Of a DNA stretch of 30,544 bases, positions 5,827 to 20,103 are shown in pieces (the first letter of the stretch is position 1; each line of letters begins with the position of its first letter). The translations under genes and the position numbers were made by a program. Location of the stretch: contig JBAZNO010000001.1 of NCBI GenBank assembly GCA_041649195.1, forward strand, positions 1 to 30,544, in the 5' to 3' direction. This stretch comes from Minisyncoccota bacterium (lineage in GTDB: Bacteria > Patescibacteriota > Minisyncoccia > Phycocordibacterales > XYD1-FULL-46-19). The notes beneath the pieces were generated by a model, which was not told where the DNA came from, did no database searches, and saw only the letters and a list, made by a program, of their open reading frames with translations.

Positions 5827-8800
5827 TTAGACCACAAAGTTGAGCAATTTATCCTTGATATATATAGCTTTTTTGTACTTTCCTTCAGCTAGCCACTTGG
5901 CCACTAGTGGATTAGTGAGAGCAAGTTTGACAACGCTTTCTTCGCTCTGGCCAGCTGGGAGATTGAGGGTCGCTCGAACCTTACCATTGATTTGAACGAC
6001 AATTTTAACTTCGCTTGAGATTAATTTTTGGGGATCGGCTACGGGCCACGCCGAGAGATGGATTGATTTTGTCTCGCCTAAATTATGCCACAATTCTTCG
6101 GCCACATGGGGCGCTAAGGGGGCAAGTAATTTGAGAAAAATTTTAAAATCTTCGACGGGGATTTGGTCGAGCTTTTCCCAATCATTAGACAAAATCATCA
6201 GGGCCGAAACGGCCGTGTTAAAATTAAAACGATTGATATCGTCGGTCACTTGTTTGATCGTCTTGTGTAAAAGATAATCGCCACCGGTGAGAAGTCGTTT
6301 TTCGTCCTGCGAAATGCGACTTCGCACCGGTGCCACTTTCCCCGCCAAGCGCCAAATCTTCTCCACAAATCTCCGTGACCCCATCAAATTATTGGTACTC
6401 CAAGCCTTAGAGAGTTCGAATGGTCCCATAAACATTTCGTAAAGACGTAAGGTGTCGGCACCATAAAGCCTCACCATATCGTCTGGGTTGATCACATTGC
6501 CCCAGCGCTTGCTCATTTTGCGATTATCCTCGCCCAAAATTAGTCCCTGATTTTTTAATTGGGCAAACGGTTCGGGATAATTAACGACGCCAATATCTTG
6601 CAAAAACTTATGCCAAAAACGGGCGTAGATTAAGTGGCGAGTCGCATGCTCGGTTCCTCCCACATACATATCAACCCCAGTAGCAGAATCTCGCGAGCTC
6701 GATTCGCTACGGGGCAGGCCGGCTCCCAACCAATAATCTAGTTTTTTAATGTCAGCGATAGACTTGCTGTTTTTGGGATCAATAAAGCGTAAAAAGTACC
6801 ATGAAGAGCCGGCCCATTGGGGCATGGTATTAGTTTCGCGCTTGGCGGGCCCTTTGCAGACCGGGCACTTAATATTGACCCAGGTTTTAATGTCAGCCAG
6901 AGGCGATTCCCCTGTGCCGGTGGGGGCATAACTTTTAACTTTAGGTAATTTGACCGGTAAATCTTTTTCGGGTACGGGTACAGCTCGTGGTGAGCCTGCC
7001 GAACCACATTTATCACAATGAATGATCGGGATCGGTTCGCCCCAATAACGTTGACGCGAAAAGACCCAATCGCGCAATTTATATTTTATTATTTGCTGAC
7101 CCCGCGCAAATTTAGTGATCGCTTTTTTGGCTTTTTCATTATCCAGTCCGGTAAATTGCTCGGAATTAATTAGGATTCCTTCTCCAATATAAGGCCCGTC
7201 TACCCCCTTCTTAATTCGCTCTAGCCAAACATCCATTTCGGCATGGACCATGAATTCAGTCGTTAATTCTTCGGGTTTGACCCAGAGAATTTCGTTTTGA
7301 GCCTCCTTTTCTCCTTCGGGAATTTCGCTTTGCTGGTCATCGACGAGGTCAAATTGAACGAGATTGGTAAAAGAAACACGATTAACATTTTTATGATTAG
7401 CAAAATATTCGGCGCGAACTTGTCCGCCAAGAACCTGGCCGTTTTTAAGATTTTGATAACCCGTTTCTTCAAGCACTTCGCGCTTGGCAGCCGTTAACAA
7501 ATCTTCTCCTTCGCTGACCCCACCCATGGGGAAAGTTACCCAATTATATTTATGAGAGTGGAGGCAAAGAATCTTTCCGGTTTTGGGGTTGCGAACAATT
7601 ACTTGAACATTTTTTCGTTCAATTTTTTCTTTACCAGCCACTGGCGGATTTCTCTTATCAATTCGTTCGGGGATAATTACTTCCTTGATCGGTAATTTAA
7701 ATTTCTTGGCAAATTGCCAGTCGCGGTCGTCGTGGGCCGGTACGGCCATAATCGCACCGGTGCCATAATCGGGTAAAACATAATCGGCCACAAAGATTGG
7801 GATCTCCTCTTTATTGGTGGGGTTAATCGCTTTAATCCCCTTCACCTCAACGCCCGTTTTTTCTTTGCCTTCGGCGGTGCGCTCTATTTCACTTCGCTTG
7901 CCAGCCAGAGCGGCGTAATCCTTGATCGCTTTTAAGTTGGTAATATTTTCGGCCAAATCATTAATTAATTTATGCTCTGGCGCTAAGACCAAATAAGTCG
8001 CACCAAATAAAGTGTCGGGGCGAGTAGTAAAAACTTTGACTTGATCGAGACAATGCTCCAAAACGAGGGGTTCGACGGTTCCGCAAAAATGGGATTTTTC
8101 GGCTTTGAGGCGATGGGTTTTGCCACCTAGTGACTGTTGAATAATTTTCGACTCGCCATCGGGGATTAAGCTATCGTTGTCATCTTCGAGAATAACAATC
8201 TCTTTAACATTTTCTTTAATTTTATTAGTATCAAATTTCCAACTCATTAAATATTTAGCCGCTAAACGTTCTTTATCGCGGAATTTTGGCTCAATCAAGC
8301 CGGCCACTAAAATTAATTTATGAATTGGCGTTGATAGTTTTTCTAAAATGCGATAAGACACGACTGAACCGAGCGAGTGACCGACAAGGATGGTGTTAGC
8401 GTCAAATTTTACTTTCGACAAAACATAATCCGCTTGCTCTACCACATCAGGCACATAGGGATGAGGCAAATCGAAGCTAATGACTTCGTGTCCTTGGGCC
8501 TCGAGCTCGCGTTTAAGCCACGGGATAAAGCAACTCTTACTATTACTGCGCCAGCCGTGCAATAAAACATATTTATATTTGGTTTTAAGCGGAAAGGAGA
8601 TCTCGGCGCCCTCACTTTTGCCAATCCAATTGCGTTGGGACTCCTTAATTGATTCAGGCCAATTGAGACCATCAAGATCTTTGAGCAAGCGCTCGGCATA
8701 ATTAGTGATCTTGAGCACCCATTGGCGCATTGGCTTTTTTATCACTTCTGAACCGCATCGTTCGCATTTACCGTCCTCGAGATCTTCGTTGGCGAGACCG

Positions 8801-9375
8801 GTTTGGCAAGACGGGCACCAATTAATTGGCTCCCACGATTCGTAAGCTAGGCCTTTTTTAAAAAGTTGAAGAAAGGCCCATTGCGTCCATTTATAATATT
8901 TGGGGTCGGTGGTATTAATTTCGCGTGACCAATCATAATCAAAACCGATTTTCTCTAATTGCGATTTAAAAACCTTAATATTTTTTTTAACGGCCACTTC
9001 AGGATTAACCTTATTTTTAATGGCATAATTTTCGGCCGGTAAACCAAAGGCGTCCCAACCCATGGGGTGCAAAACATTGAAGCCGTTCATGCGTTTAAAA
9101 CGCGAATAAATATCGGTGGCGGTATAACCCTCAACATGGCCAACATGGAGCCCGTCGCCCGAAGGGTATGGGAACATGTCTAAAATATAGGCCTTGGGCT
9201 TGCCTTTAGAATCGGTAGTTTTATAAGTTTTTTTAGCTCGCCAAACTTTCTGCCACTTAGATTCAATCTTAGCATGATCATACTTGCTTGCTTGCCCATC
9301 CGTAGCTTTGGCGGAGGAGGGCCACTTTTTCTCAATCTTTAAGTGATCGTACTTATCAATTTTTTTAGTCGCCAT
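5827..9375 (-). CDS. leuS: Leucyl-tRNA synthetase with inserted alpha/beta-hydrolase and Nudix domains
   Basis: MFPYPSG.GLHVGH, HPMGWDAFGLPAEN, FTTRPDTLFG, GTGAIMAVPAHD.RD, RDW.FSRQRYWGEPIP, GG.EHA..HL.Y.RF, KMSKRWGN, VVQINGKVR; 1182 aa. Confidence 0.97.
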   Translation of the reverse strand: MATKKIDKYDHLKIEKKWPSSAKATDGQASKYDHAKIESKWQKVWRAKKTYKTTDSKGKPKAYILDMFPYPSGDGLHVGHVEGYTATDIYSRFKRMNGFNVLHPMGWDAFGLPAENYAIKNKVNPEVAVKKNIKVFKSQLEKIGFDYDWSREINTTDPKYYKWTQWAFLQLFKKGLAYESWEPINWCPSCQTGLANEDLEDGKCERCGSEVIKKPMRQWVLKITNYAERLLKDLDGLNWPESIKESQRNWIGKSEGAEISFPLKTKYKYVLLHGWRSNSKSCFIPWLKRELEAQGHEVISFDLPHPYVPDVVEQADYVLSKVKFDANTILVGHSLGSVVSYRILEKLSTPIHKLILVAGLIEPKFRDKERLAAKYLMSWKFDTNKIKENVKEIVILEDDNDSLIPDGESKIIQQSLGGKTHRLKAEKSHFCGTVEPLVLEHCLDQVKVFTTRPDTLFGATYLVLAPEHKLINDLAENITNLKAIKDYAALAGKRSEIERTAEGKEKTGVEVKGIKAINPTNKEEIPIFVADYVLPDYGTGAIMAVPAHDDRDWQFAKKFKLPIKEVIIPERIDKRNPPVAGKEKIERKNVQVIVRNPKTGKILCLHSHKYNWVTFPMGGVSEGEDLLTAAKREVLEETGYQNLKNGQVLGGQVRAEYFANHKNVNRVSFTNLVQFDLVDDQQSEIPEGEKEAQNEILWVKPEELTTEFMVHAEMDVWLERIKKGVDGPYIGEGILINSEQFTGLDNEKAKKAITKFARGQQIIKYKLRDWVFSRQRYWGEPIPIIHCDKCGSAGSPRAVPVPEKDLPVKLPKVKSYAPTGTGESPLADIKTWVNIKCPVCKGPAKRETNTMPQWAGSSWYFLRFIDPKNSKSIADIKKLDYWLGAGLPRSESSSRDSATGVDMYVGGTEHATRHLIYARFWHKFLQDIGVVNYPEPFAQLKNQGLILGEDNRKMSKRWGNVINPDDMVRLYGADTLRLYEMFMGPFELSKAWSTNNLMGSRRFVEKIWRLAGKVAPVRSRISQDEKRLLTGGDYLLHKTIKQVTDDINRFNFNTAVSALMILSNDWEKLDQIPVEDFKIFLKLLAPLAPHVAEELWHNLGETKSIHLSAWPVADPQKLISSEVKIVVQINGKVRATLNLPAGQSEESVVKLALTNPLVAKWLAEGKYKKAIYIKDKLLNFVV
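6282..6332. repeat. 51-bp in-frame palindromic insertion in leuS
   Basis: CACCGGTG-A-GAAGTCG...TTCG-TCCTG-CGAA...CGACTTC-G-CACCGGTG; peptide APVRSRISQDEKRLLTG. Confidence 0.8.
6675..6714. repeat. Palindromic insertion in leuS
   Basis: CCCC-A-GTAGC-A-GAATC...GATTC-GCTAC-GGGG; peptide LPRSESSSRDSATG just before the DMYVGG motif. Confidence 0.7.
6983..7005 (-). repeat. Family A mini-element in leuS
   Basis: Minus strand GGTTCGGCAGGCTCACCACGAGC; peptide GSAGSPRA between C..CG and VPVP. Confidence 0.7.
9290..9322 (-). repeat. Family B mini-element in the leuS N-terminus
   Basis: Minus strand CCCTCCTCCGCCAAAGCTACGGATGGGCAAGC; peptide PSSAKATDGQA; similar to 28441-28471. Confidence 0.75.
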
Positions 9376-9383
9376 TGCGTTTC

Positions 9384-9411
9384 ATCATAACACGAACCAA
9401 AAAGATTTCAA
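9384..9411 (-). promoter_or_regulatory. Near-leaderless leuS promoter
   Basis: TTGAAA, 16 bp, TATGAT with an extended TG, then 8 nt to the ATG; no SD. Confidence 0.55.
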
Positions 9412-9439
9412 TTTGACATCGATGGGTTTGAATTTTATG

Positions 9440-9475
9440 AAAAAGAAAAAGCTGTTTGGGTGCGCAAACAGCTTT
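9440..9475 (-). terminator. Intrinsic terminator downstream of the candidate ncRNA
   Basis: Minus strand AAAGCTGTTTG-CGCACC-CAAACAGCTTT followed by TTCTTTTT. Confidence 0.8.
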
Positions 9476-9482
9476 CCACTGC

Positions 9483-9745
9483 AATACTTGAGCCCAGCCA
9501 GACCCTGGGATCCGGGAATTCGGCCCTGAGTACCTCTTCCGATGCCCATTTGAGGGAACAACTCACACCGTTGCCAAAACCAAGCAGGGCTTGGCTAAAA
9601 GAGACGCCCTCTTCCCGTTGGAGGCCATGACCCACAGCAGAGCTTTGAAGACTTAAAGACTGCCATCATTGGTGGGGAGCATCTTTGCTGGGAGCGCTAA
9701 AACCGAGATTTTCACTCATCCCACTATTGCTTCTTCTCAAGTATC
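9483..9745 (-). ncRNA. Candidate structured ncRNA of unknown family (~263 nt)
   Basis: Perfect 9-bp closing stem ATACTTGAG/CTCAAGTAT, several internal hairpins, ~54% GC (hand count 9481-9720) between AT-rich flanks, terminator immediately 3'. Strand inferred from the terminator. Confidence 0.5.
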
Positions 9746-9815
9746 CTGCTTGATAAAAGCACGAAAAAGTCATTTTGTCTAGGAAAAATGATGTTTTATT
9801 AATTATAACACCTCT

Positions 9816-10490
9816 TTAGTTTTTTTCGATGCCGATGATTTGGCCGTCGTCGATGCGGACGATTTTTTGAGCCATTTTGCCATAAGGTTCTTCGTGGGTC
9901 ACCATGATAATCGTTTGGCCAGCGGCGTGAAGCTCGGTAAAAATTTTCATCACGGCGCGTGAGGATTCGTTATCAAGATTGGCGGTGGGCTCGTCGGCAA
10001 ATAAAATATTTGGCTGGTGGGCAATGGCCCGAGCGATGCTGGCCCGTTGTTGCTCCCCGCCTGAGAGTTGACTCGGCAATTGGTGGAGATGATTAACTAA
10101 ACCCACTTTAGATAAGGATTCGAACGATAATTCGTAAGCCTTACTTTTTTCGACCCCCTGCATCAAGAGGGGTAAAACGACATTTTCGAGAGCGGTTAAT
10201 TCGGGGATTAAAGCGTAATCTTGAAAGACGTAACCTAATTTTTCGAGTCGAAATTTAGTTTTTTCTTCAGCGGTCATCTTGTGGGTGTCGTTACCATCGA
10301 TAATAATTTCGCCGGCGGTTGGTTCGTCAAGCAAGCTCATTTGATACATTAAGGTACTCTTGCCGGCGCCCGAACGACCCATAATGGCAATAAATTCGCC
10401 GGTTTCTACCTTCAAATCAATCCCCTTGAGAACCTTGGTCTCAATGTTGCCGGTGAAGAAGGAGCGTTGTAATTTTTTGGTTTCAATCAT
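9816..10490 (-). CDS. ABC transporter ATP-binding protein, LolD/MacB type
   Basis: GRSGAGKST, LGYVFQ, LSGGEQQR, ILFADEPTANLD, MVTHE. Confidence 0.92.
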   Translation of the reverse strand: MIETKKLQRSFFTGNIETKVLKGIDLKVETGEFIAIMGRSGAGKSTLMYQMSLLDEPTAGEIIIDGNDTHKMTAEEKTKFRLEKLGYVFQDYALIPELTALENVVLPLLMQGVEKSKAYELSFESLSKVGLVNHLHQLPSQLSGGEQQRASIARAIAHQPNILFADEPTANLDNESSRAVMKIFTELHAAGQTIIMVTHEEPYGKMAQKIVRIDDGQIIGIEKN

Positions 10491-15673: not shown

Positions 15674-15904
15674 TTAAGATTTCTCGCTCAAAATTTTGGC
15701 TAATTCGGGGCCGTGTTTGGTGGCGATGGCCATCGCTGCTTCTTCATAGCTCAAATGATCTTTTTTTACCTTATCTTCAATCTCTTGCCCCAATCGCTGA
15801 AAAAGTCCGGGGTTACTTTTAACCACCTTCATCATCGCGTCGAGCTCTGGGCCTTTTACGCCCATCCCCTTCAATTGTCGTTTTACAAAAAATTCTTTAA
15901 ACAT
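15674..15904 (-). CDS. Small helical hypothetical protein (76 aa)
   Basis: ATG at 15904 overlaps the upstream stop (TAATG coupling); MFKEFFVKRQLKGMG...; resembles small conserved CPR proteins, from memory. Confidence 0.7.
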   Translation of the reverse strand: MFKEFFVKRQLKGMGVKGPELDAMMKVVKSNPGLFQRLGQEIEDKVKKDHLSYEEAAMAIATKHGPELAKILSEKS

Positions 15905-16920
15905 TACTCCAAGACGATTTTGGGTAGATATCCTCTTCGGCGACCGATAATCCAAATAATTACAACGAGGATAATGATGATAATAATTGGAGAGATCGGC
16001 GAATAAATTTTGACTAATTGCCACCAGCTAACCCAAACAACTGACACAGTGCCATTAACCGTCTCAATATTCTCGGCAAATTGCGTGTCCTGTTTATTAA
16101 CGTTTGTTAAATTATTATTAGCGTTGGCGGTCAGTCTTTCTAGATTTTGACTTTGAACAGCGTAATTGCTATTTTCGGTGTTTAATCTTTGCTTTTGCGT
16201 CCCCTCCTGCCCAATAAGAGAAGTTTCCTGTTCTCTCAGCAAAACAATGACTGAAGAATCAGTTTCCTCAGAGAGAGTGGCCCGGACATCAGCCAATTCT
16301 GTTCGAATGCGGGTTAATTCTTTGCTAATCGAGTTAACACTTTGTGTATGCTTAGTGATAAGGTCTTGCTTTTGTTTACTCAGCGTTTCCAAGTTAGTTA
16401 GAACGTTTTCGGTTTGATTTTCAATTCTTTGTTTTTGGCTAAGAAGATTTTGCGACGAAATGCTCTCCACATATAATTTAGCATAATCTAGCCCCTCAAT
16501 TTCAGATCGTAATTCTTCGAATTTGCTTTTAGCAACGACAAAAGTAAGACTACCCCTTTTTTCAGAACTGTAGAAATTATCAACTCTTCCGTCGGCCCCT
16601 TTAACAGCGTTACGCACATCCTTGATCTTTTCGGCGACATTTCGCGTTTTAATCGTGGCCGAATAGCTGGTCTTTAAAAATTCTCGAGTATCGGCAATTG
16701 AAGATTTTTGTTCACCATAATAATCGGAGGGAGCAATTGAAGTAGTGACTAATGAGCCACCATCCAATGCCGTCGGGGCATTACCAATGTCAAAGCTGGC
16801 CCTATTTCGAGCCGACGACATAGATGATAAAACTATCCACCCTAAAATTATCACTATGACAATGATCACGGCCAAAACTACCAACTTTCGACGCGAAATT
16901 CTTATTACTTTTTCGTCCAT
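15904..16920 (-). CDS. DUF4349-like membrane protein with a long coiled coil
   Basis: N- and C-terminal TMs; G.LTFVVAKSKFEE; VESISSQN followed by a long heptad region. Confidence 0.6.
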   Translation of the reverse strand: MDEKVIRISRRKLVVLAVIIVIVIILGWIVLSSMSSARNRASFDIGNAPTALDGGSLVTTSIAPSDYYGEQKSSIADTREFLKTSYSATIKTRNVAEKIKDVRNAVKGADGRVDNFYSSEKRGSLTFVVAKSKFEELRSEIEGLDYAKLYVESISSQNLLSQKQRIENQTENVLTNLETLSKQKQDLITKHTQSVNSISKELTRIRTELADVRATLSEETDSSVIVLLREQETSLIGQEGTQKQRLNTENSNYAVQSQNLERLTANANNNLTNVNKQDTQFAENIETVNGTVSVVWVSWWQLVKIYSPISPIIIIIILVVIIWIIGRRRGYLPKIVLE

Positions 16921-16983
16921 AGGGTTTATATTATTTAATAATAACTTAGATATTATAACACTGAACTTGTTGACTCACCATTG

Positions 16984-17083
16984 TGGACCGTAGCGGACTC
17001 GGACCGCTTACCTCCTGCTTGCAAAGCAGGCGCTCCCCGCCCGACTGAACGATTTCAGTCGTTCGGGCGGGTACCAGATGAGC
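16984..17083 (-). pseudogene. tRNA-Ala(TGC) pseudogene: positions ~1-9 missing, 36-bp insertion in the D arm
   Basis: Minus strand GCTCATCTGGTA[insert]GAGCG-CCTGC-TTTGCAA-GCAGG-AGGTA-AGCGG-TCCGAGT-CCGCT-ACGGTCCA; the T-loop reads TCCGA instead of TTCGA. Confidence 0.85.
17036..17071. repeat. 36-bp palindromic insertion in the tRNA pseudogene
   Basis: CCCGCCCGA...TCGGGCGGG 9-bp arms with an inner GACTGAA-CGAT-TTCAGTC hairpin. Confidence 0.85.
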
Positions 17084-17085
17084 GG

Positions 17086-17159
17086 TGGACCGCACCGGGC
17101 TCGAACCGGTTACCTCCCGCTTGCAAAGCGGGTGCTCTAGCCAGATGAGCTAGCGGCCC
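17086..17159 (-). tRNA. tRNA-Ala(TGC)
   Basis: Acceptor GGGCCGC/GCGGTCC with G3:U70, anticodon arm CCCGC-TTTGCAA-GCGGG, GGTTCGAG T-loop, discriminator A; CCA not encoded. Confidence 0.95.
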
Positions 17160-17165
17160 ATTATA

Positions 17166-17402
17166 TTAACAAATCTTGTCTTTCAAAAACCTTCTTCCCG
17201 CAGCGCTTTTAAAATAGAGCTCTCTTTTTCTCGCTTCAAATAAGGTGCCATAATTTTCAGTATACACAACTGAAAGCTCACCCATTTTGCTTGTGGTAAC
17301 AGTATGGCCAGAACGATGCTCTTTTAATCTTCGTTCGAGATTATTGGTCATCCCTTTATAAATTTTACCAGAAATATCTTTCAGGACATAAACGGTAAAC
17401 AT
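17166..17402 (-). CDS. Small GIY-YIG nuclease family protein (UPF0213-like, 78 aa)
   Basis: MFTVYVL...KIYKGMTNNLERRLKEH.SG...VYTE..GT..EARKRE.YFKS..GR; start reassigned to ATG 17402. Confidence 0.85.
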   Translation of the reverse strand: MFTVYVLKDISGKIYKGMTNNLERRLKEHRSGHTVTTSKMGELSVVYTENYGTLFEARKRELYFKSAAGRRFLKDKIC

Positions 17403-17424
17403 ATATATTGGTGAGCAAATAGTA

Positions 17425-18387
17425 CTATTTTTTGAACAAATCTTCAATAATGTCCTCAAGCGGGGTGGCCAAGATATCAATATCTAGAACGGGCACATGG
17501 CTGGTGACGGTTGAGATCAATTTGGGCATTTGGGCCGTTTTAACTTTGTAAGTAGCGCAATCTTCGCTGGTCTCAATCAATTCGCTATGGGGCACTTTGG
17601 GTAATTCGGCCGGGGTTATTTCAAAATAGAATTTAACTAATTTCTCCTCATTGTGTTCGTCAACCAAATTTTCGACGGTGCCATCATAAATTTTTTCACC
17701 TTTATTAATCACAATCACGCGGTCGCAAACTTTCTCGACATCAGTCATATCATGGCTCGTTAGGATAATGGTGACTTTGTAACGATCTTGAATTTCGCGC
17801 AAAAAGTGGCGGATCTTCTTTTTGGCGACAATGTCTAGCCCAATCGTTGGTTCATCAAGAAAAAGAATTTGCGGATTATGAATAATTGATCCAATTAATT
17901 CTAATTTCATTCGCTCGCCAAGCGAAAGCTTGCGCACGGGCACATCTAACACGTGGGTAACGGCCATTAGCTCGGCCAATTCTTTGACTCTGATCTCGCA
18001 TTGTTTAGGGTCAAGGCCATAAATTTCGCGCAAAAGGTAAAAACTTTGCTTGGCCGTAAGATCCCAATTGAGGCCTGCCTTATTGCCCATGAGGAGCCCA
18101 ATTTGCCGTAGGAACTCGGGTTTGCGGTCAAAGGGGAAGAAGCCAAGGACGCTAATGTCGCCTCTCGTAGGGTAAATTAGGCCGGTCAGGGCCTTAATGG
18201 TGGTCGTTTTACCGGCGCCATTGGGCCCTAATAGGGCAAGGCTTTCCCCACTCTTAACCTCAAAGGACACCTCTTTAACGGCCGAAACCGTGCGATGGTC
18301 TGGGCGCCAAATGCCCGTAAAGATATTTTTGTTTTGTCTGATCTTAAAATCTTTACCTAAATTTTTAACGGAAATAATGTTTTTCAT
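17425..18387 (-). CDS. ABC-2 exporter ATP-binding protein (DrrA-like)
   Basis: [34 protein letters not shown]. Confidence 0.9.
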   Translation of the reverse strand: MKNIISVKNLGKDFKIRQNKNIFTGIWRPDHRTVSAVKEVSFEVKSGESLALLGPNGAGKTTTIKALTGLIYPTRGDISVLGFFPFDRKPEFLRQIGLLMGNKAGLNWDLTAKQSFYLLREIYGLDPKQCEIRVKELAELMAVTHVLDVPVRKLSLGERMKLELIGSIIHNPQILFLDEPTIGLDIVAKKKIRHFLREIQDRYKVTIILTSHDMTDVEKVCDRVIVINKGEKIYDGTVENLVDEHNEEKLVKFYFEITPAELPKVPHSELIETSEDCATYKVKTAQMPKLISTVTSHVPVLDIDILATPLEDIIEDLFKK

Positions 18388-18399
18388 CTTATTTTTATA

Positions 18400-19212
18400 T
18401 TATGAGGCCGAAGTGTAATTTTTCAAAGCGAGATCCCAAAGTTTTTTCTTGATCATAAGGAGCATGAGGGTGATGAAAAAAGTAAAGGGCAGGAGGTACA
18501 AGGCGCTAGCCTTACCTAGCATAATCGAAACGGGGATTGAAGACAGTAAAAGAGTTGGCACAAAAAAGGAGAGAGAAAATTGAAAGAAGGGGGTATAACC
18601 CTCCCAGGGGATTTGATTATTGTCACGCAAATTATAATTTAAGGAATAAATTTGTTTGGCCTCCCCCGTCCAAAAGGCCGGTAGCACTAATAAGAAATTA
18701 AAACTTTCCCAGGCAATTTGACCAAAAACAAAAACAATCAAGCCTAGGATAAAGTTTATTAAACTGACGTGAATATTTGACCAATCAATAAGAAAAAAGA
18801 TAATAATGATGTTGGGCAGGCCATCCCGAGCAACACTCAAGAGCGGGATTTTGCGAAAAGTGACATACCACAAGGAGGGAACCGGCAAGACGAGGAGGAA
18901 ATCGAGTGACCCGCGATTAATATCTTTGATCAAAGTCTGATTGTTCATTTCGCTTATCCCCCACAAAAGGTAAAAGCCAAATTGCCCGATAAATAAGAGA
19001 AAATACATCTCGTTTTTATCATAGCCGGCAAAGGTATTAACGCGCGAATAAATCACATTGATAAATAAAATCTGAACGGTGACATAAATGATAGTGGAAA
19101 TCATGTTTCCCCAATTATTGCCAAAATACGCCGTTTCGGTTTGAAAGGTGTTAATGAGATTAGCGCGCAAAATTCGCCAATAGATTTTTAGTTTAGACCC
19201 CCACCCCTTCAT
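18400..19212 (-). CDS. ABC-2 family permease (DUF990-like)
   Basis: About 6 TMs; I..GSLDFLLVLPV motif; exact start uncertain. Confidence 0.8.
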   Translation of the reverse strand: MKGWGSKLKIYWRILRANLINTFQTETAYFGNNWGNMISTIIYVTVQILFINVIYSRVNTFAGYDKNEMYFLLFIGQFGFYLLWGISEMNNQTLIKDINRGSLDFLLVLPVPSLWYVTFRKIPLLSVARDGLPNIIIIFFLIDWSNIHVSLINFILGLIVFVFGQIAWESFNFLLVLPAFWTGEAKQIYSLNYNLRDNNQIPWEGYTPFFQFSLSFFVPTLLLSSIPVSIMLGKASALYLLPFTFFITLMLLMIKKKLWDLALKNYTSAS

Positions 19213-19975
19213 AAGTTTTTACTGAGCGTCGCCAAAAGTAACGCGTTATAAAAATTAAAATAATCGACCAAAAGAGAGCGGGCAAAAATAATTGGAGCAA
19301 TTCAGCTACCCCCAATTGATTTTGGAGCACATAGGCGGGCGAAAAAATCAGCGCCGGGAAAGGTAATAATAATAAAATTTCTTTGATCCCGGTTGGGAAG
19401 AGGTTAATGGGGATAAGGGAGCCAGATAATATTTTGTTGACGTGATTAAAAGCGTTACGAAAACCGTTGGCTTCGGGCGAATAAAAACTTAAGAGGCCAA
19501 CAATCACGTTGAAACAAAGGGAGATGATTAAGGCAAAAATAATGAAGATAAGAAAGGCCAAAACATTAAACCAAGTCATTGGTGGTAAGATCACGAGACC
19601 GATAATTAGCGTGGCTAAAGCGTAAAACATCCCCAGTCCGGTTTCGCCGGCATAAGAAAAAAAGAGGTAGGGTACCGTTTTGATTGGTTTAATAAAATGA
19701 TTATTAATCTCTCCCCTATTTACCAATTGTTGGATATAACGGCCAAACTTAGTATCTTGACCATAAGTGACCTCTCTCACTGCCGCCGCAATAAAAAAGT
19801 AGGCGATCAAAGGGCGAAAGTCGATGCCCCCACTCGAACTCATAGCAATGGCATACCAAAACAAAGCCAAAAAACCGAGGGCAATAAAACGCCCCGCAAA
19901 AAAGGCAATTATTTCAAAAGGATAAGCCAAGATCTTAAGCCAATTGAACTTAATGACCGACAAATATAATTTCAT
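19193..19975 (-). CDS. ABC-2 family permease (DUF990-like)
   Basis: About 6 TMs; V..GEI...FIKPI, LSGSLIP..LFP. Start reassigned to ATG 19975 because the longer ORF runs through a tRNA gene. Confidence 0.8.
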   Translation of the reverse strand: MKLYLSVIKFNWLKILAYPFEIIAFFAGRFIALGFLALFWYAIAMSSSGGIDFRPLIAYFFIAAAVREVTYGQDTKFGRYIQQLVNRGEINNHFIKPIKTVPYLFFSYAGETGLGMFYALATLIIGLVILPPMTWFNVLAFLIFIIFALIISLCFNVIVGLLSFYSPEANGFRNAFNHVNKILSGSLIPINLFPTGIKEILLLLPFPALIFSPAYVLQNQLGVAELLQLFLPALFWSIILIFITRYFWRRSVKTYEGVGV

Positions 19976-19980
19976 TCGAG

Positions 19981-20053
19981 TGGACCATAGCGGGATCGAA
20001 CCGCTTACCTCTTCCATGCCATGGAAGCGCTCTACCAAGTGAGCTAATGGCCC
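19981..20053 (-). tRNA. tRNA-Ala(GGC)
   Basis: Acceptor GGGCCAT/ATGGTCC with G3:U70, anticodon arm CTTCC-ATGGCAT-GGAAG, GGTTCGAT T-loop; CCA not encoded. Confidence 0.95.
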
Positions 20054-20072
20054 TAACGCTTGCCAATATAAC

Positions 20073-20103
20073 AAAAAAGGCCCTGTTTGAAAAGGCCTTT
20101 TTT
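20073..20103. terminator. Terminator hairpin after the surface protein gene
   Basis: AAAAAAGGCC...GGCCTTTTTT, with T-runs on both strands. Confidence 0.7.

What the first reader, a model, noticed from the sequence alone, without database searches (positions are those of the whole stretch)
16984..17159. Intact tRNA-Ala(TGC) fused at its CC to position 10 of a second, dead tRNA-Ala(TGC)
Seen: the intact gene ends A73-C-C and continues directly into G10 of a second copy that lacks the 5' acceptor strand, has a 36-bp palindrome in its D arm and a mutated T-loop. The copies differ by paired changes in the anticodon stem (CCCGC/GCGGG versus CCTGC/GCAGG) and T stem (ACCGG/CCGGT versus AGCGG/CCGCT), so both were once functional. 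Established: ordinary integrase att duplications repeat the 3' part of a tRNA with near identity. Inference: replacement of a resident tRNA by an incoming one through 5'-end insertion.
Basis: partly seen in the sequence, partly recalled or inferred. Interest (0 to 1): 0.7.

Follow-up and report, generated by a model that had tools for sequence, protein, structure and literature searches.

The report
Replaced tRNA gene with palindrome scar
In a tiny CPR bacterial genome the native alanine tRNA gene is broken and carries a conserved 36-base palindrome, a foreign-looking working copy tied to a small GIY-YIG nuclease gene sits fused in front of it, and the same arrangement recurs in related bacteria, which points to an undescribed kind of tRNA-replacing mobile element.

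Summary
On the minus strand a 78-aa GIY-YIG ORF (17402..17166) is followed after 6 nt by an intact tRNA-Ala(UGC) (17159..17086). Its A73-CC runs straight into G10 of a second copy (17083..16984). That copy lacks nt 1-9, has a 36-nt palindrome (17071..17036) between nt 21 and 22, and has C55.

With the palindrome removed, the dead copy differs only at C55 from the tRNA-Ala(UGC) of G002, which sits at the same DUF4349 locus and is one of the two closest congeners by protein identity. The intact copy is 73/74 identical to the tRNA of a more distant congener, G004. So the dead copy is the native gene and the live one came in horizontally.

The new result is that the palindrome is not a private scar:
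- It occurs letter for letter in 14 metagenome contigs, and with up to 3 changes in 13 of 401 genomes of the order.
- About half of its contexts are dead partial tRNA copies, mostly at the same D-loop site.
- These dead copies lie next to an intact tRNA of the same kind, often with a homologous GIY-YIG ORF.

GIY-YIG-then-tRNA modules are common in the order. An independent assembly bridges the junction. No integrase was found in the genome. I found no description of this system. The mechanism is inferred.

The parts
17166..17402 (-). 78-aa stand-alone GIY-YIG nuclease ORF (ATG at 17402, stop at 17168-17166), ending 6 nt before the intact tRNA
   Evidence: It matches Pfam PF01541 at 40.3 bits (cut-off 22.6). 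Homologues of 82-87% identity also sit 5-6 nt upstream of, or overlapping, a tRNA-Ala gene.
17086..17159 (-). Intact tRNA-Ala(UGC), nt 1-73, the only intact UGC isoacceptor found in the genome; the 'incoming' copy
   Evidence: Called by ARAGORN and by Rfam at 60.2 bits. It is the only such gene among the 43 tRNA calls in the genome. It is 73/74 identical to the tRNA of G004.
17084..17085 (-). CC at the fusion point, either the start of an encoded CCA or the donor's 3' trailer
   Evidence: The sequence is. The G004 trailer reads C-T-GCT where the window reads C-C-GCT, and GCT is nt 10-12 of the dead copy, so a 3-nt microhomology is possible.
17072..17083 (-). Dead native tRNA-Ala(UGC), nt 10-21 (D stem 5' strand and D loop)
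   Evidence: It is identical to G002 nt 10-21.
17036..17071 (.). 36-nt GC-rich imperfect palindrome ('HP'; termini CCCGCCCG...CGGGCGGG) inserted between nt 21 and 22
   Evidence: - It has exact copies in 14 metagenome contigs.
- Copies with up to 3 mismatches occur in 13 of 401 genomes of the order, and the reversed control pattern gives 0 hits.
- In three metagenomes, loose ends of many other contigs fall exactly at 17036 and 17071.
- The fold has z = -5.2.
16984..17035 (-). Dead native tRNA-Ala(UGC), nt 22-73
   Evidence: It is identical to the G002 orthologue except for C55. Rfam scores it 27 bits, below the 29-bit threshold.
15904..16920 (-). DUF4349 gene, the syntenic anchor downstream of the native tRNA
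   Evidence: It matches PF14257. Orthologues of 59-64% identity occur in G002, G005 and G008. In G002, tRNA-Ala(GGC) and tRNA-Ala(UGC) lie directly upstream of it.
19980..20053 (-). tRNA-Ala(GGC), the upstream neighbour; context only
   Evidence: In G002 and G005 it lies 67 nt and 10 nt upstream of tRNA-Ala(UGC).
17425..19969 (-). ABC-2 transporter operon (two permeases and an ATPase) between the two tRNA-Ala loci; context only, not part of the recent event
   Evidence: Pfam assignments are. The order ABC, GIY-YIG, tRNA-Ala(UGC) is shared with L081, and the order tRNA-Ala(GGC), ABC with L084.

Best explanation
This locus is the scar of a tRNA-gene replacement.

**What is shown**
- The lineage's own tRNA-Ala(UGC) gene survives as a dead remnant. 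It lacks nt 1-9 and is split in the D loop by a 36-nt palindromic mini-element.
- Its function has passed to a horizontally derived allele. That allele lies directly behind a 78-aa GIY-YIG nuclease gene and is fused, without a spacer, to nt 10 of the remnant.
- The arrangement belongs to a recurring architecture in this CPR order. A small GIY-YIG ORF and an intact tRNA lie next to a partial copy of the same tRNA species, upstream of the ORF or downstream of the intact tRNA, and that copy usually carries a palindrome of this family in its D arm.

**What is inferred**
- The GIY-YIG protein acts like a free-standing homing nuclease. It breaks tRNA genes in or near the D arm.
- The break is repaired from incoming related DNA. 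Here the left end would use homology in GIY-YIG and the tRNA 5' end, and the right end would be an illegitimate join at a possible GCT microhomology. The result is a whole replacement tRNA.
- The palindrome is this nuclease clade's cognate element, either a recognition or cleavage beacon or a passenger moved in trans. It persists only in copies that are no longer needed.
For: **1. The dead copy is the native gene.**
- G002 has tRNA-Ala(GGC), a 67-nt spacer, tRNA-Ala(UGC), then DUF4349.
- Its tRNA-Ala(UGC) equals the dead copy over nt 10-73 apart from C55.

**2. The intact copy is foreign.**
- It is 99% identical to the G004 tRNA, 88% to G002 and 82% to G005.
- The proteins say the opposite. 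YchF is 82-83% identical in G002 and G005 but 79% in G004. LeuRS is 83-85% against 71%.

**3. The GIY-YIG-then-tRNA module is general.**
- 94 of 201 genomes in the order have homologues.
- In at least 17 of 29 fetched loci, a same-strand tRNA starts between -10 and +34 nt from the stop codon. Twelve different tRNA identities are involved.
- Partial copies of that tRNA flank the module.

**4. The palindrome recurs.**
- It has exact copies in 14 metagenome contigs and near copies in 13 of 401 genomes, with 1-2 copies per genome.
- About 12 of about 25 distinct contexts are tRNA fragments. The insertion sites are nt 21|22 (at least 6 cases), 9|10, 7|8, 13|14 and the T loop.

**5. The same layout appears independently.**
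- G010/L076 has GIY-YIG, a divergent intact tRNA-Ala(GGC), then nt 8-21, the palindrome, and nt 22-76 of the native gene.
- L054/L063 has an intact tRNA-Thr fused to a copy truncated at its 5' end that carries the palindrome at 21|22.
- Contig C48 of the same genome has tRNA-Glu nt 1-21, a 32-nt relative of the palindrome, about nt 22-36, and then an intact but divergent tRNA-Glu.

**6. The palindrome travels with this nuclease clade.**
- The GIY-YIG homologues of 87% and 82% identity have the exact or a one-mismatch palindrome in a tRNA-Ala 5' fragment just upstream (L084, L085).
- Other clades carry variant palindromes (L022-L024, L027, L047, L049).
- Four of 11 palindrome-positive genomes tested have a GIY-YIG of at least 55% identity, against 6 of 200 in the background.

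**7. The junction is real, and no integrase was found**.
Against: - **No activity is shown.** The protein is only the 78-aa catalytic core with no DNA-binding domain, unlike characterised homing GIY-YIG enzymes.
- **The order of events is unknown.** Replacement could have come before or after the palindrome insertion.
- **Both flanks of the palindrome are native sequence.** In the window it therefore entered the native gene separately from the incoming tRNA.
- **About half of the palindrome copies lie outside tRNA contexts,** some in frame inside long ORFs. Seven of the 11 palindrome-positive genomes tested lack a close GIY-YIG. The link between the two is therefore partial.
- **The module and the incoming tRNA are not one fixed cassette.** L081, a relative with the same ABC, GIY-YIG, tRNA-Ala(UGC) order, has no dead copy and no palindrome. 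In G004 the tRNA of the incoming type has no GIY-YIG beside it.
- **There is no RNA evidence.**
Confidence: 0.72

Rival explanations
1. An old tandem duplication of tRNA-Ala(UGC) arose in situ. Both copies diverged while functional. One then decayed through a deletion of the spacer plus nt 1-9 and a chance palindrome insertion. No horizontal transfer or nuclease is involved.
For: The two copies abut and are the same isoacceptor. The compensatory stem changes show that both were once functional.
Against: - No relative examined has a tandem UGC pair; G002, G004, G005 and G008 each have one.
- The intact copy is 99% identical to the tRNA of a distant congener, and the dead copy matches a close one. 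A duplication within the lineage does not predict this.
- The same layout, with the same palindrome, recurs for other tRNAs in other genomes.
Confidence: 0.08
2. Poison first. The palindrome inserted into the live native tRNA gene, on its own or moved by the neighbouring nuclease, and inactivated it. Acquisition of the replacement allele was then strongly selected. The 5' truncation is the illegitimate end of that rescue event.
For: - Both flanks of the palindrome are native sequence.
- The palindrome sits in the D arm or T loop of dead copies far more often than their share of the genome predicts.
- The boundary of the replacement lies only 8-18 nt from the palindrome in most loci, on either side.
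Against: This genome has only one intact tRNA-Ala(UGC). Losing a sole isoacceptor should be lethal before any rescue could happen. No full-length tRNA gene that carries only the palindrome was seen.
Confidence: 0.12
3. The palindrome-bearing remnant is retained because it does something for the module. It could act as a 3' hairpin that ends or stabilises the GIY-YIG-tRNA transcript. It could also break up the homology that would otherwise let recombination delete the module.
For: - GC-rich palindromes of several unrelated sequences occupy the same place in tRNA fragments beside GIY-YIG ORFs (L047, L049).
- The arms are conserved, variation is concentrated in the central 3 nt, and G308 has a compensatory pair.
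- The fold is stable.
Against: - No U-tract or terminator consensus is present, and there is no Rfam match.
- The element lies upstream of the ORF in some loci, downstream of the tRNA in others, and in either orientation.
- Solo copies occur inside ORFs.
Confidence: 0.06
4. Assembly artefact: two tRNA-Ala alleles from co-existing strains were joined by the assembler.
For: The genome is a metagenome-assembled genome, and tRNA regions collapse in the read graph. Word depth rises to the hundreds over 16970-17158.
Against: - A separate Logan contig spans 17003-17500 without a difference.
- The same kind of fusion is seen in independent assemblies of other organisms (L054 and L063 from two projects; G010).
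Confidence: 0.02

Closest known systems
Phage T4 SegB, a free-standing GIY-YIG homing endonuclease in the T4 tRNA gene cluster (PMC2330249; PMC13096335)
   Same: - A GIY-YIG nuclease gene is embedded among tRNA genes.
- Its target is a conserved tRNA-gene motif, and it cuts at the 3' ends of tRNA genes, often just after CCAR.
- Homing carries the neighbouring tRNA genes along and replaces the recipient's alleles.
   Different: - SegB is a full-length enzyme with a recognition region of 27 bp. The protein here is a 78-aa catalytic core.
- This case is in a cellular CPR genome, not a phage, and the palindrome had no match in viral contigs.
- SegB has no associated palindromic element and leaves no dead, fused tRNA remnant.
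Integrase-mediated insertion of genomic islands and prophages into tRNA genes (att duplication)
   Same: A partial tRNA copy lies next to an intact one, and the mobile DNA restores the function of the gene it disrupts.
   Different: - No integrase was found in the genome, and no island lies between the copies.
- The duplicated part is nt 10-73, not a short 3' segment.
- The copies agree in only about 57 of 66 aligned positions and differ by compensatory changes.
Short palindromic mobile elements: Rickettsia palindromic elements, REP/RAYT, and yeast mitochondrial GC clusters (PMC4478555)
   Same: - The element is a 30-40-nt GC-rich hairpin in an AT-richer genome.
- The same sequence turns up in unrelated contexts, including in frame inside ORFs.
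- There is a possible dedicated nuclease partner, as RAYT is for REP.
   Different: - There are only 1-2 copies per genome rather than tens or hundreds.
- It has a strong bias for the D arm and T loop of dead tRNA copies.
- Its partner, if there is one, is a GIY-YIG core and not a HUH/Y1 transposase.
Homology-facilitated illegitimate recombination during natural transformation (cited from my own knowledge)
   Same: One end of the incoming DNA is anchored by homology, and the other joins at a microhomology of a few bases. This fits the conserved junction between GIY-YIG and the tRNA 5' end on the left, and the CC|GCT join on the right.
   Different: This describes a repair route, not an element. 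It does not explain why the palindrome or the GIY-YIG linkage recurs.

Membership tests
tRNA (Rfam RF00005), intact copy | Cloverleaf scoring above the family's gathering threshold, with the Ala identity pair G3:U70 | tested here: met
   The score is 60.2 bits against a threshold of 29. ARAGORN calls Ala(tgc). G3:U70 can be read.
tRNA (Rfam RF00005), second copy | Complete cloverleaf including the 5' acceptor strand | tested here: not met
   The score is 27 bits, below 29, and only model positions 10-63 match. Nucleotides 1-9 are absent, and 36 nt are inserted at 21|22.
Free-standing GIY-YIG homing endonuclease (Seg-like) | GIY-YIG catalytic domain | tested here: met
   PF01541 matches at 40.3 bits, cut-off 22.6.
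Free-standing GIY-YIG homing endonuclease (Seg-like) | A separate DNA-binding or recognition domain, giving a protein of roughly 200 aa or more | tested here: not met
   The ORF is 78 aa and contains the catalytic core only. The match to the NCBIfam group I intron endonuclease model is 18.9 bits, far below its 56-bit cut-off.
Free-standing GIY-YIG homing endonuclease (Seg-like) | Presence or absence of the gene at orthologous loci in related genomes | tested here: met
   - G002 and G005 have no GIY-YIG upstream of tRNA-Ala(UGC).
- L081 has one in the same place as the window.
- G004 keeps only a 3' remnant upstream of tRNA-Ala(GGC).
Free-standing GIY-YIG homing endonuclease (Seg-like) | Site-specific cleavage of the allele that lacks the gene, and co-conversion of flanking markers | not testable with these tools
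   The only evidence is indirect. The adjacent tRNA is of a foreign type, and stem types differ among tRNAs behind GIY-YIGs of 82-87% identity.
Integrase att-site duplication at a tRNA gene | Tyrosine or serine recombinase gene next to the duplicated tRNA segment | tested here: not met
   PF00589 has no match anywhere in G000, which is 90% complete. The control search found it in 14 of 14 reference genomes. The neighbouring genes are an ABC transporter, GIY-YIG and DUF4349. Serine recombinases were not searched.
Integrase att-site duplication at a tRNA gene | Near-identical direct repeat of the tRNA 3' part, with the island between the repeats | tested here: not met
   The copies abut. They agree in about 57 of 66 aligned positions and differ by paired stem changes.
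Short palindromic mobile elements (RPE, REP, GC-cluster type) | The same short palindrome in many unrelated sequence contexts | tested here: met
   It occurs in 14 metagenome contigs (about 11 contexts) and in 13 genomes, and the reversed control gives 0 hits. Loose ends in other contigs fall at its exact borders.
Short palindromic mobile elements (RPE, REP, GC-cluster type) | High copy number within a genome | tested here: not met
   There are 1 or at most 2 copies per genome. G000 has one copy plus one 32-nt relative.
tRNA intron (archaeal bulge-helix-bulge or group I) | The flanking exons together make a complete tRNA, and a splicing motif or ribozyme is present | tested here: not met
   The 5' exon lacks nt 1-9. 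The insert is a plain 36-nt hairpin with no Rfam intron match. The bulge-helix-bulge motif was not examined separately.

The most novel reading that the evidence does not exclude
The minimal GIY-YIG nuclease and its cognate palindrome may together form a previously unrecognised class of selfish element in CPR bacteria that targets tRNA genes.

- The palindrome marks or disables a resident tRNA gene in the D arm or T loop.
- The nuclease cuts 8-18 nt to either side of it.
- The break is healed by copying in the nuclease gene together with a working replacement tRNA.

The host would then depend on the element's own tRNA copy. This is a gene-replacement drive with built-in rescue. Solo palindromes in ORFs and spacers would be non-autonomous copies moved in trans.
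Probability: 0.3. Interest if true: 0.9.

Novelty: new variant of a known kind. Interest (0 to 1): 0.72.

Why it matters
tRNA genes are among the most conserved and least replaceable genes in a minimal genome of about 0.6 Mb. Here one has been swapped for a foreign allele, and the wreck of the old gene sits beside it.

The same three parts recur across many CPR genomes and tRNA identities: a small GIY-YIG ORF, an intact tRNA, and a dead partial tRNA that carries a conserved palindrome.

If the mechanism holds, it would:
- explain why stand-alone GIY-YIG genes are so abundant in CPR bacteria and why they sit against tRNA genes;
- give a route for horizontal turnover of tRNA genes;
- add a very small nuclease-plus-palindrome pair to the known kinds of mobile DNA, and the pair is simple enough to test in vitro.

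It also matters for annotation. ARAGORN calls the dead copy a second tRNA-Ala.

Tried and rejected
- **Palindrome as a repeat within the genome.** A search allowing up to 8 substitutions found only the one copy. A looser pattern found a 32-nt relative on contig C48 and two doubtful ones.
- **Exact search for the intact tRNA's core in genome contigs.** A 44-nt pattern gave 0 hits. A 28-nt pattern gave 2, one of which is G004.
- **A 2.9-kb insertion of ABC operon, GIY-YIG and tRNA between the two tRNA-Ala genes.** I first read the locus this way, from G002 and G005. I dropped it because L084 has tRNA-Ala(GGC) followed by ABC, and L081 has ABC, GIY-YIG, then tRNA-Ala(UGC). In G008 the ABC orthologue lies elsewhere.
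- **A 5' remnant (nt 1-9) of the native gene.** None was found upstream of GIY-YIG or after tRNA-Ala(GGC), by inspection.
- **Palindrome as a known RNA family, terminator or promoter.** No match.
- **Palindrome in viral contigs.** No match.
- **Integrase.** PF00589 was not found in the genome.
- **Literature.** Five full-text searches found no description of CPR GIY-YIG-tRNA modules or of this palindrome.
- **Expression.** No RNA holder was listed among the sequencing runs.
- **Run X2.** No listed piece bridges 17060-17155.
- **A single contiguous element of palindrome plus GIY-YIG.** Rejected for the window and most other loci, because the bases between the two continue the tRNA sequence.
Full report
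**Setting**

The window is contig C1 of a 590-kb genome in 86 contigs, about 90% complete. It belongs to the Candidate Phyla Radiation (Patescibacteria). Record titles of the two genomes that share the tRNA core call them Candidatus Saccharibacteria. The nearest GIY-YIG homologues are labelled Paceibacterota or Patescibacteria. I therefore give no finer taxon.

**Anatomy (minus strand)**

The gene order is as follows:
- tRNA-Ala(GGC), 20053..19980
- two ABC-2 permeases and an ABC ATPase, down to 17425
- a 78-aa GIY-YIG ORF, 17402..17166
- 6 nt of spacer
- the intact tRNA-Ala(UGC), 17159..17086
- CC, 17085-17084
- nt 10-21 of a second tRNA-Ala(UGC), 17083..17072
- a 36-nt palindrome, 17071..17036
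- nt 22-73 of the second copy, 17035..16984
- 63 nt of spacer
- the DUF4349 gene, 16920..15904

Rfam scores the first tRNA at 60.2 bits and the second at 27 bits, below the 29-bit threshold. The genome has no other tRNA-Ala(UGC). ARAGORN's second 'gene' at 16985-17060 is a mis-fold that uses half of the palindrome.

**Is the junction real?**

A 3031-nt Logan contig from run X1 matches 17003-17500 without a difference. It therefore spans both the CC|G10 fusion and the palindrome. X1 is a landfill metagenome and probably the source sample, but this is a different assembly. Run X2, a groundwater metagenome from another study, holds 85% of the sampled words and matches exactly over 16700-17059 and 17156-17500. 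No listed X2 piece crosses 17060-17155.

**Which copy is native?**

Same-genus genome G002 has tRNA-Ala(GGC), a 67-nt spacer, tRNA-Ala(UGC), then DUF4349. Its tRNA-Ala(UGC) equals the dead copy over nt 10-73 except for C55, once the MAFFT gap is placed at 21|22.

The intact copy is 73/74 identical to the only tRNA-Ala(UGC) of G004. It is 88% identical to that of G002 and 82-85% to those of G005, G008 and G003. Protein identities point the other way:

| Congener | YchF | LeuRS segment |
|---|---|---|
| G002 | 82% | 83% |
| G005 | 83% | 85% |
| G004 | 79% | 71% |

The dead copy therefore follows the organism, and the live copy does not. No relative examined has two UGC genes in tandem. PF00589, the tyrosine integrase family, has no match in the genome. 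It argues against both an att-type duplication and a simple tandem duplication.

C55 is not a sign of decay, because the otherwise intact gene of G005 has it too.

**The palindrome is a conserved element**

- The exact 36-mer occurs in 14 metagenome contigs from many projects, in about 11 distinct contexts.
- With up to 3 mismatches it occurs in 13 of 401 genomes of the order, at 1-2 copies each. The reversed control pattern gives no hit.
- Variation is concentrated in the central three bases. G308 carries a compensatory C-to-T and G-to-A pair in the inner stem.
- In runs X1-X3, several contigs per run break away from the window exactly at 17036 and 17071. This fixes the element's borders and shows that it sits in many other contexts in those communities.
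- As single-stranded DNA it folds at -14.7 kcal/mol, z = -5.2.
- It has no Rfam match, no terminator or promoter consensus, and no match in viral contigs.

**Where it sits**

About 12 of about 25 distinct contexts are fragments of tRNA genes, which make up well under 1% of such genomes. The element always lies in a fragment and never in the intact tRNA beside it. The sites are nt 21|22 (GGTA|GAGC, at least six cases), 9|10, 7|8, 13|14, and the T loop after TTC.

Several loci repeat the window's layout ('type I'):
- G010/L076, same family: GIY-YIG, a divergent intact tRNA-Ala(GGC), two bases, then nt 8-21, the palindrome, and nt 22-76 of the native-type gene.
- L054/L063: an intact tRNA-Thr(UGU) fused to a second copy that starts near nt 12 and carries the palindrome at 21|22.
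- L027: similar, with a 44-nt variant of the palindrome.

Other loci show the mirror form ('type II'). In these a tRNA 5' fragment carrying the palindrome is followed by the ATG of a GIY-YIG ORF at or just after the anticodon loop, then the ORF, then an intact tRNA. Examples are L084, L023, L024, L022, L053, L060, L064 and L085. G004/L075 keeps only the last 17 or so codons of the ORF.

The same genome holds a second case on contig C48. There, tRNA-Glu nt 1-21, a 32-nt relative of the palindrome, and about nt 22-36 are followed after about 45 nt by an intact tRNA-Glu(CUC) with a different D loop.

The remaining copies are in spacers or lie in frame within long open reading frames, where they read as P-A-R-T-T-x-x-V-Q-S-G-G.

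**The GIY-YIG-then-tRNA module**

- Homologues of the 78-aa protein occur in 94 of 201 genomes of the order, often in several copies and often at contig ends.
- In at least 17 of 29 fetched loci, a tRNA on the same strand begins between -10 and +34 nt from the stop codon. In three more the open frame runs into the tRNA.
- Twelve tRNA identities are involved.
- In several loci the stop codon is the tRNA's own U8-A9-G10.
- Short-word BLAST of each tRNA against its own locus finds partial copies of the same tRNA flanking the module.
- The closest homologues (82-87% identity) all precede a tRNA-Ala, but the tRNAs differ: GGC in L084, and UGC with three different stem types in the window, L081 and L085. 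The tRNA behind this nuclease clade therefore turns over quickly.
- L081 shares the window's order: the end of the ABC ATPase (EDLFKK stop), about 20 nt, GIY-YIG, then tRNA-Ala(UGC). L084 shares the order tRNA-Ala(GGC) then ABC. The ABC operon is therefore not part of the recent event, as I had first thought. What is specific to G000 is the G004-type tRNA placed between GIY-YIG and nt 10 of the native gene.

**Link between the palindrome and the nuclease**

- The exact or one-mismatch palindrome accompanies this GIY-YIG clade in L084, L085, G004, G010 and the window. More distant clades carry variant or unrelated GC-rich palindromes at the same place.
- Of the 11 other palindrome-positive genomes tested, 4 have a GIY-YIG at least 55% identical to the window's. 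The background is 6 of 200. The genomes are related to one another, so this is indicative only.
- By inspection, the tRNA-derived stretch between the palindrome and the boundary of the GIY-YIG or tRNA insert is 8-18 nt in most loci, whichever side the insert lies on. It is 12 nt in the window, 13 in G010, 10 in L054, 16 in L084, L023 and G004, 17 in L024, 14 in L053, and 11-12 in L060 and L064.
- The T-loop cases (L052, L055) do not fit this spacing.

**Mechanism: what is shown and what is inferred**

Shown:
- The native gene is dead, and its replacement is of foreign type.
- The replacement is joined to a GIY-YIG ORF.
- The palindrome is a conserved element that recurs in dead tRNA copies.

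Inferred:
- The small nuclease breaks tRNA genes in or near the D arm. T4 SegB, a GIY-YIG enzyme in a tRNA cluster, recognises a tRNA motif, cuts at the 3' ends of tRNA genes, and drives inheritance of its neighbouring tRNA genes (PMC2330249).
- The break is repaired from related incoming DNA.
- In the window the left crossover would lie in the shared GIY-YIG and tRNA 5' region.
- The right end would be an illegitimate join. The G004 trailer reads C-T-GCT where the window reads C-C-GCT, and GCT is nt 10-12 of the native gene, which suggests a 3-nt microhomology.
- The palindrome is either the nuclease's recognition beacon or an element it moves in trans. It survives only where selection no longer protects the tRNA.

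The order of events is open. Both flanks of the palindrome are native, so in this locus it entered the native gene separately from the replacement.

**What speaks against the model**

- The protein has no DNA-binding domain.
- Half of the palindrome copies lie outside tRNA contexts.
- Many palindrome-positive genomes lack a close GIY-YIG.
- L081 has the module without a dead copy or a palindrome.
- There is no activity or RNA evidence.

**Novelty**

Five full-text searches found no account of GIY-YIG-tRNA modules in CPR bacteria or of this palindrome. The nearest published systems are SegB, integrase att duplications at tRNA genes, and short palindromic elements such as the Rickettsia elements, REP/RAYT, and the yeast mitochondrial GC clusters (PMC4478555). 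Each shares some features and fails others, as set out in the membership table. I rate this a new variant of known kinds, with a fair chance that the nuclease and palindrome together form a new class of element.

The census of loci here supports the linkage. It also shows that the tRNA is not a fixed passenger.

Noticed in passing
G000 contig C48:3905-4110 (own genome, outside the window): This is a second case in the same genome. It reads tRNA-Glu nt 1-21, a 32-nt palindrome with the same termini (C48:4038-4069), about nt 22-36, about 45 nt of spacer, then an intact tRNA-Glu(CUC) with a different D loop. No GIY-YIG ORF lies between.
   Followed up: partly
L022, L023, L024, L027, L030, L034, L049 (GIY-YIG loci in other genomes): The GIY-YIG reading frame runs 9-10 nt into the downstream tRNA, and the stop codon is the tRNA's own U8-A9-G10 (TAG). 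RNase P cleavage at the tRNA 5' end would therefore remove the stop codon from the mRNA.
   Followed up: no
L068, L071, L077, L078 (palindrome copies in other genomes): Solo copies of the 36-nt palindrome lie in frame inside long open frames (244-466 aa). They are always read as P-A-R-T-T-x-x-V-Q-S-G-G, which is reminiscent of Rickettsia palindromic elements in protein genes.
   Followed up: partly
L020:177-252 (G005) and L076 (G010): Otherwise intact tRNA-Ala genes have C at position 55 (T-loops TCCGAGT and TCCGACT) in place of the near-universal U55. The G005 gene is the only tRNA-Ala(UGC) found in that genome.
   Followed up: no
window 9294-9820, compared with L017 (G008:C1:131000-145000): In G008 the orthologous ABC-2 operon (ATPase 84% identical) lies between the homologues of window genes 9820-10490 and 7675-9294. 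The operon has therefore moved or been lost and regained within the genus.
   Followed up: partly
G000 contigs C32:3520-3900 and C9:11375-11650: Two other GIY-YIG ORFs of a different subfamily are each preceded by a GC-rich hairpin that contains GTAGCTTTAGCGAAG. One follows tRNA-Ser(GGA). Each nuclease subfamily may have its own hairpin.
   Followed up: no
window 19193-20074 (minus strand): The mechanical 293-aa ORF starts inside tRNA-Ala(GGC). The real start of the ABC-2 permease is most likely the ATG 5 nt after the tRNA, near 19974 (protein begins MKLYLSV...).
   Followed up: no
whole genome G000: No tyrosine recombinase (PF00589) was detected at all, not even a XerC/D-type enzyme, in a genome estimated to be 90% complete.
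   Followed up: no
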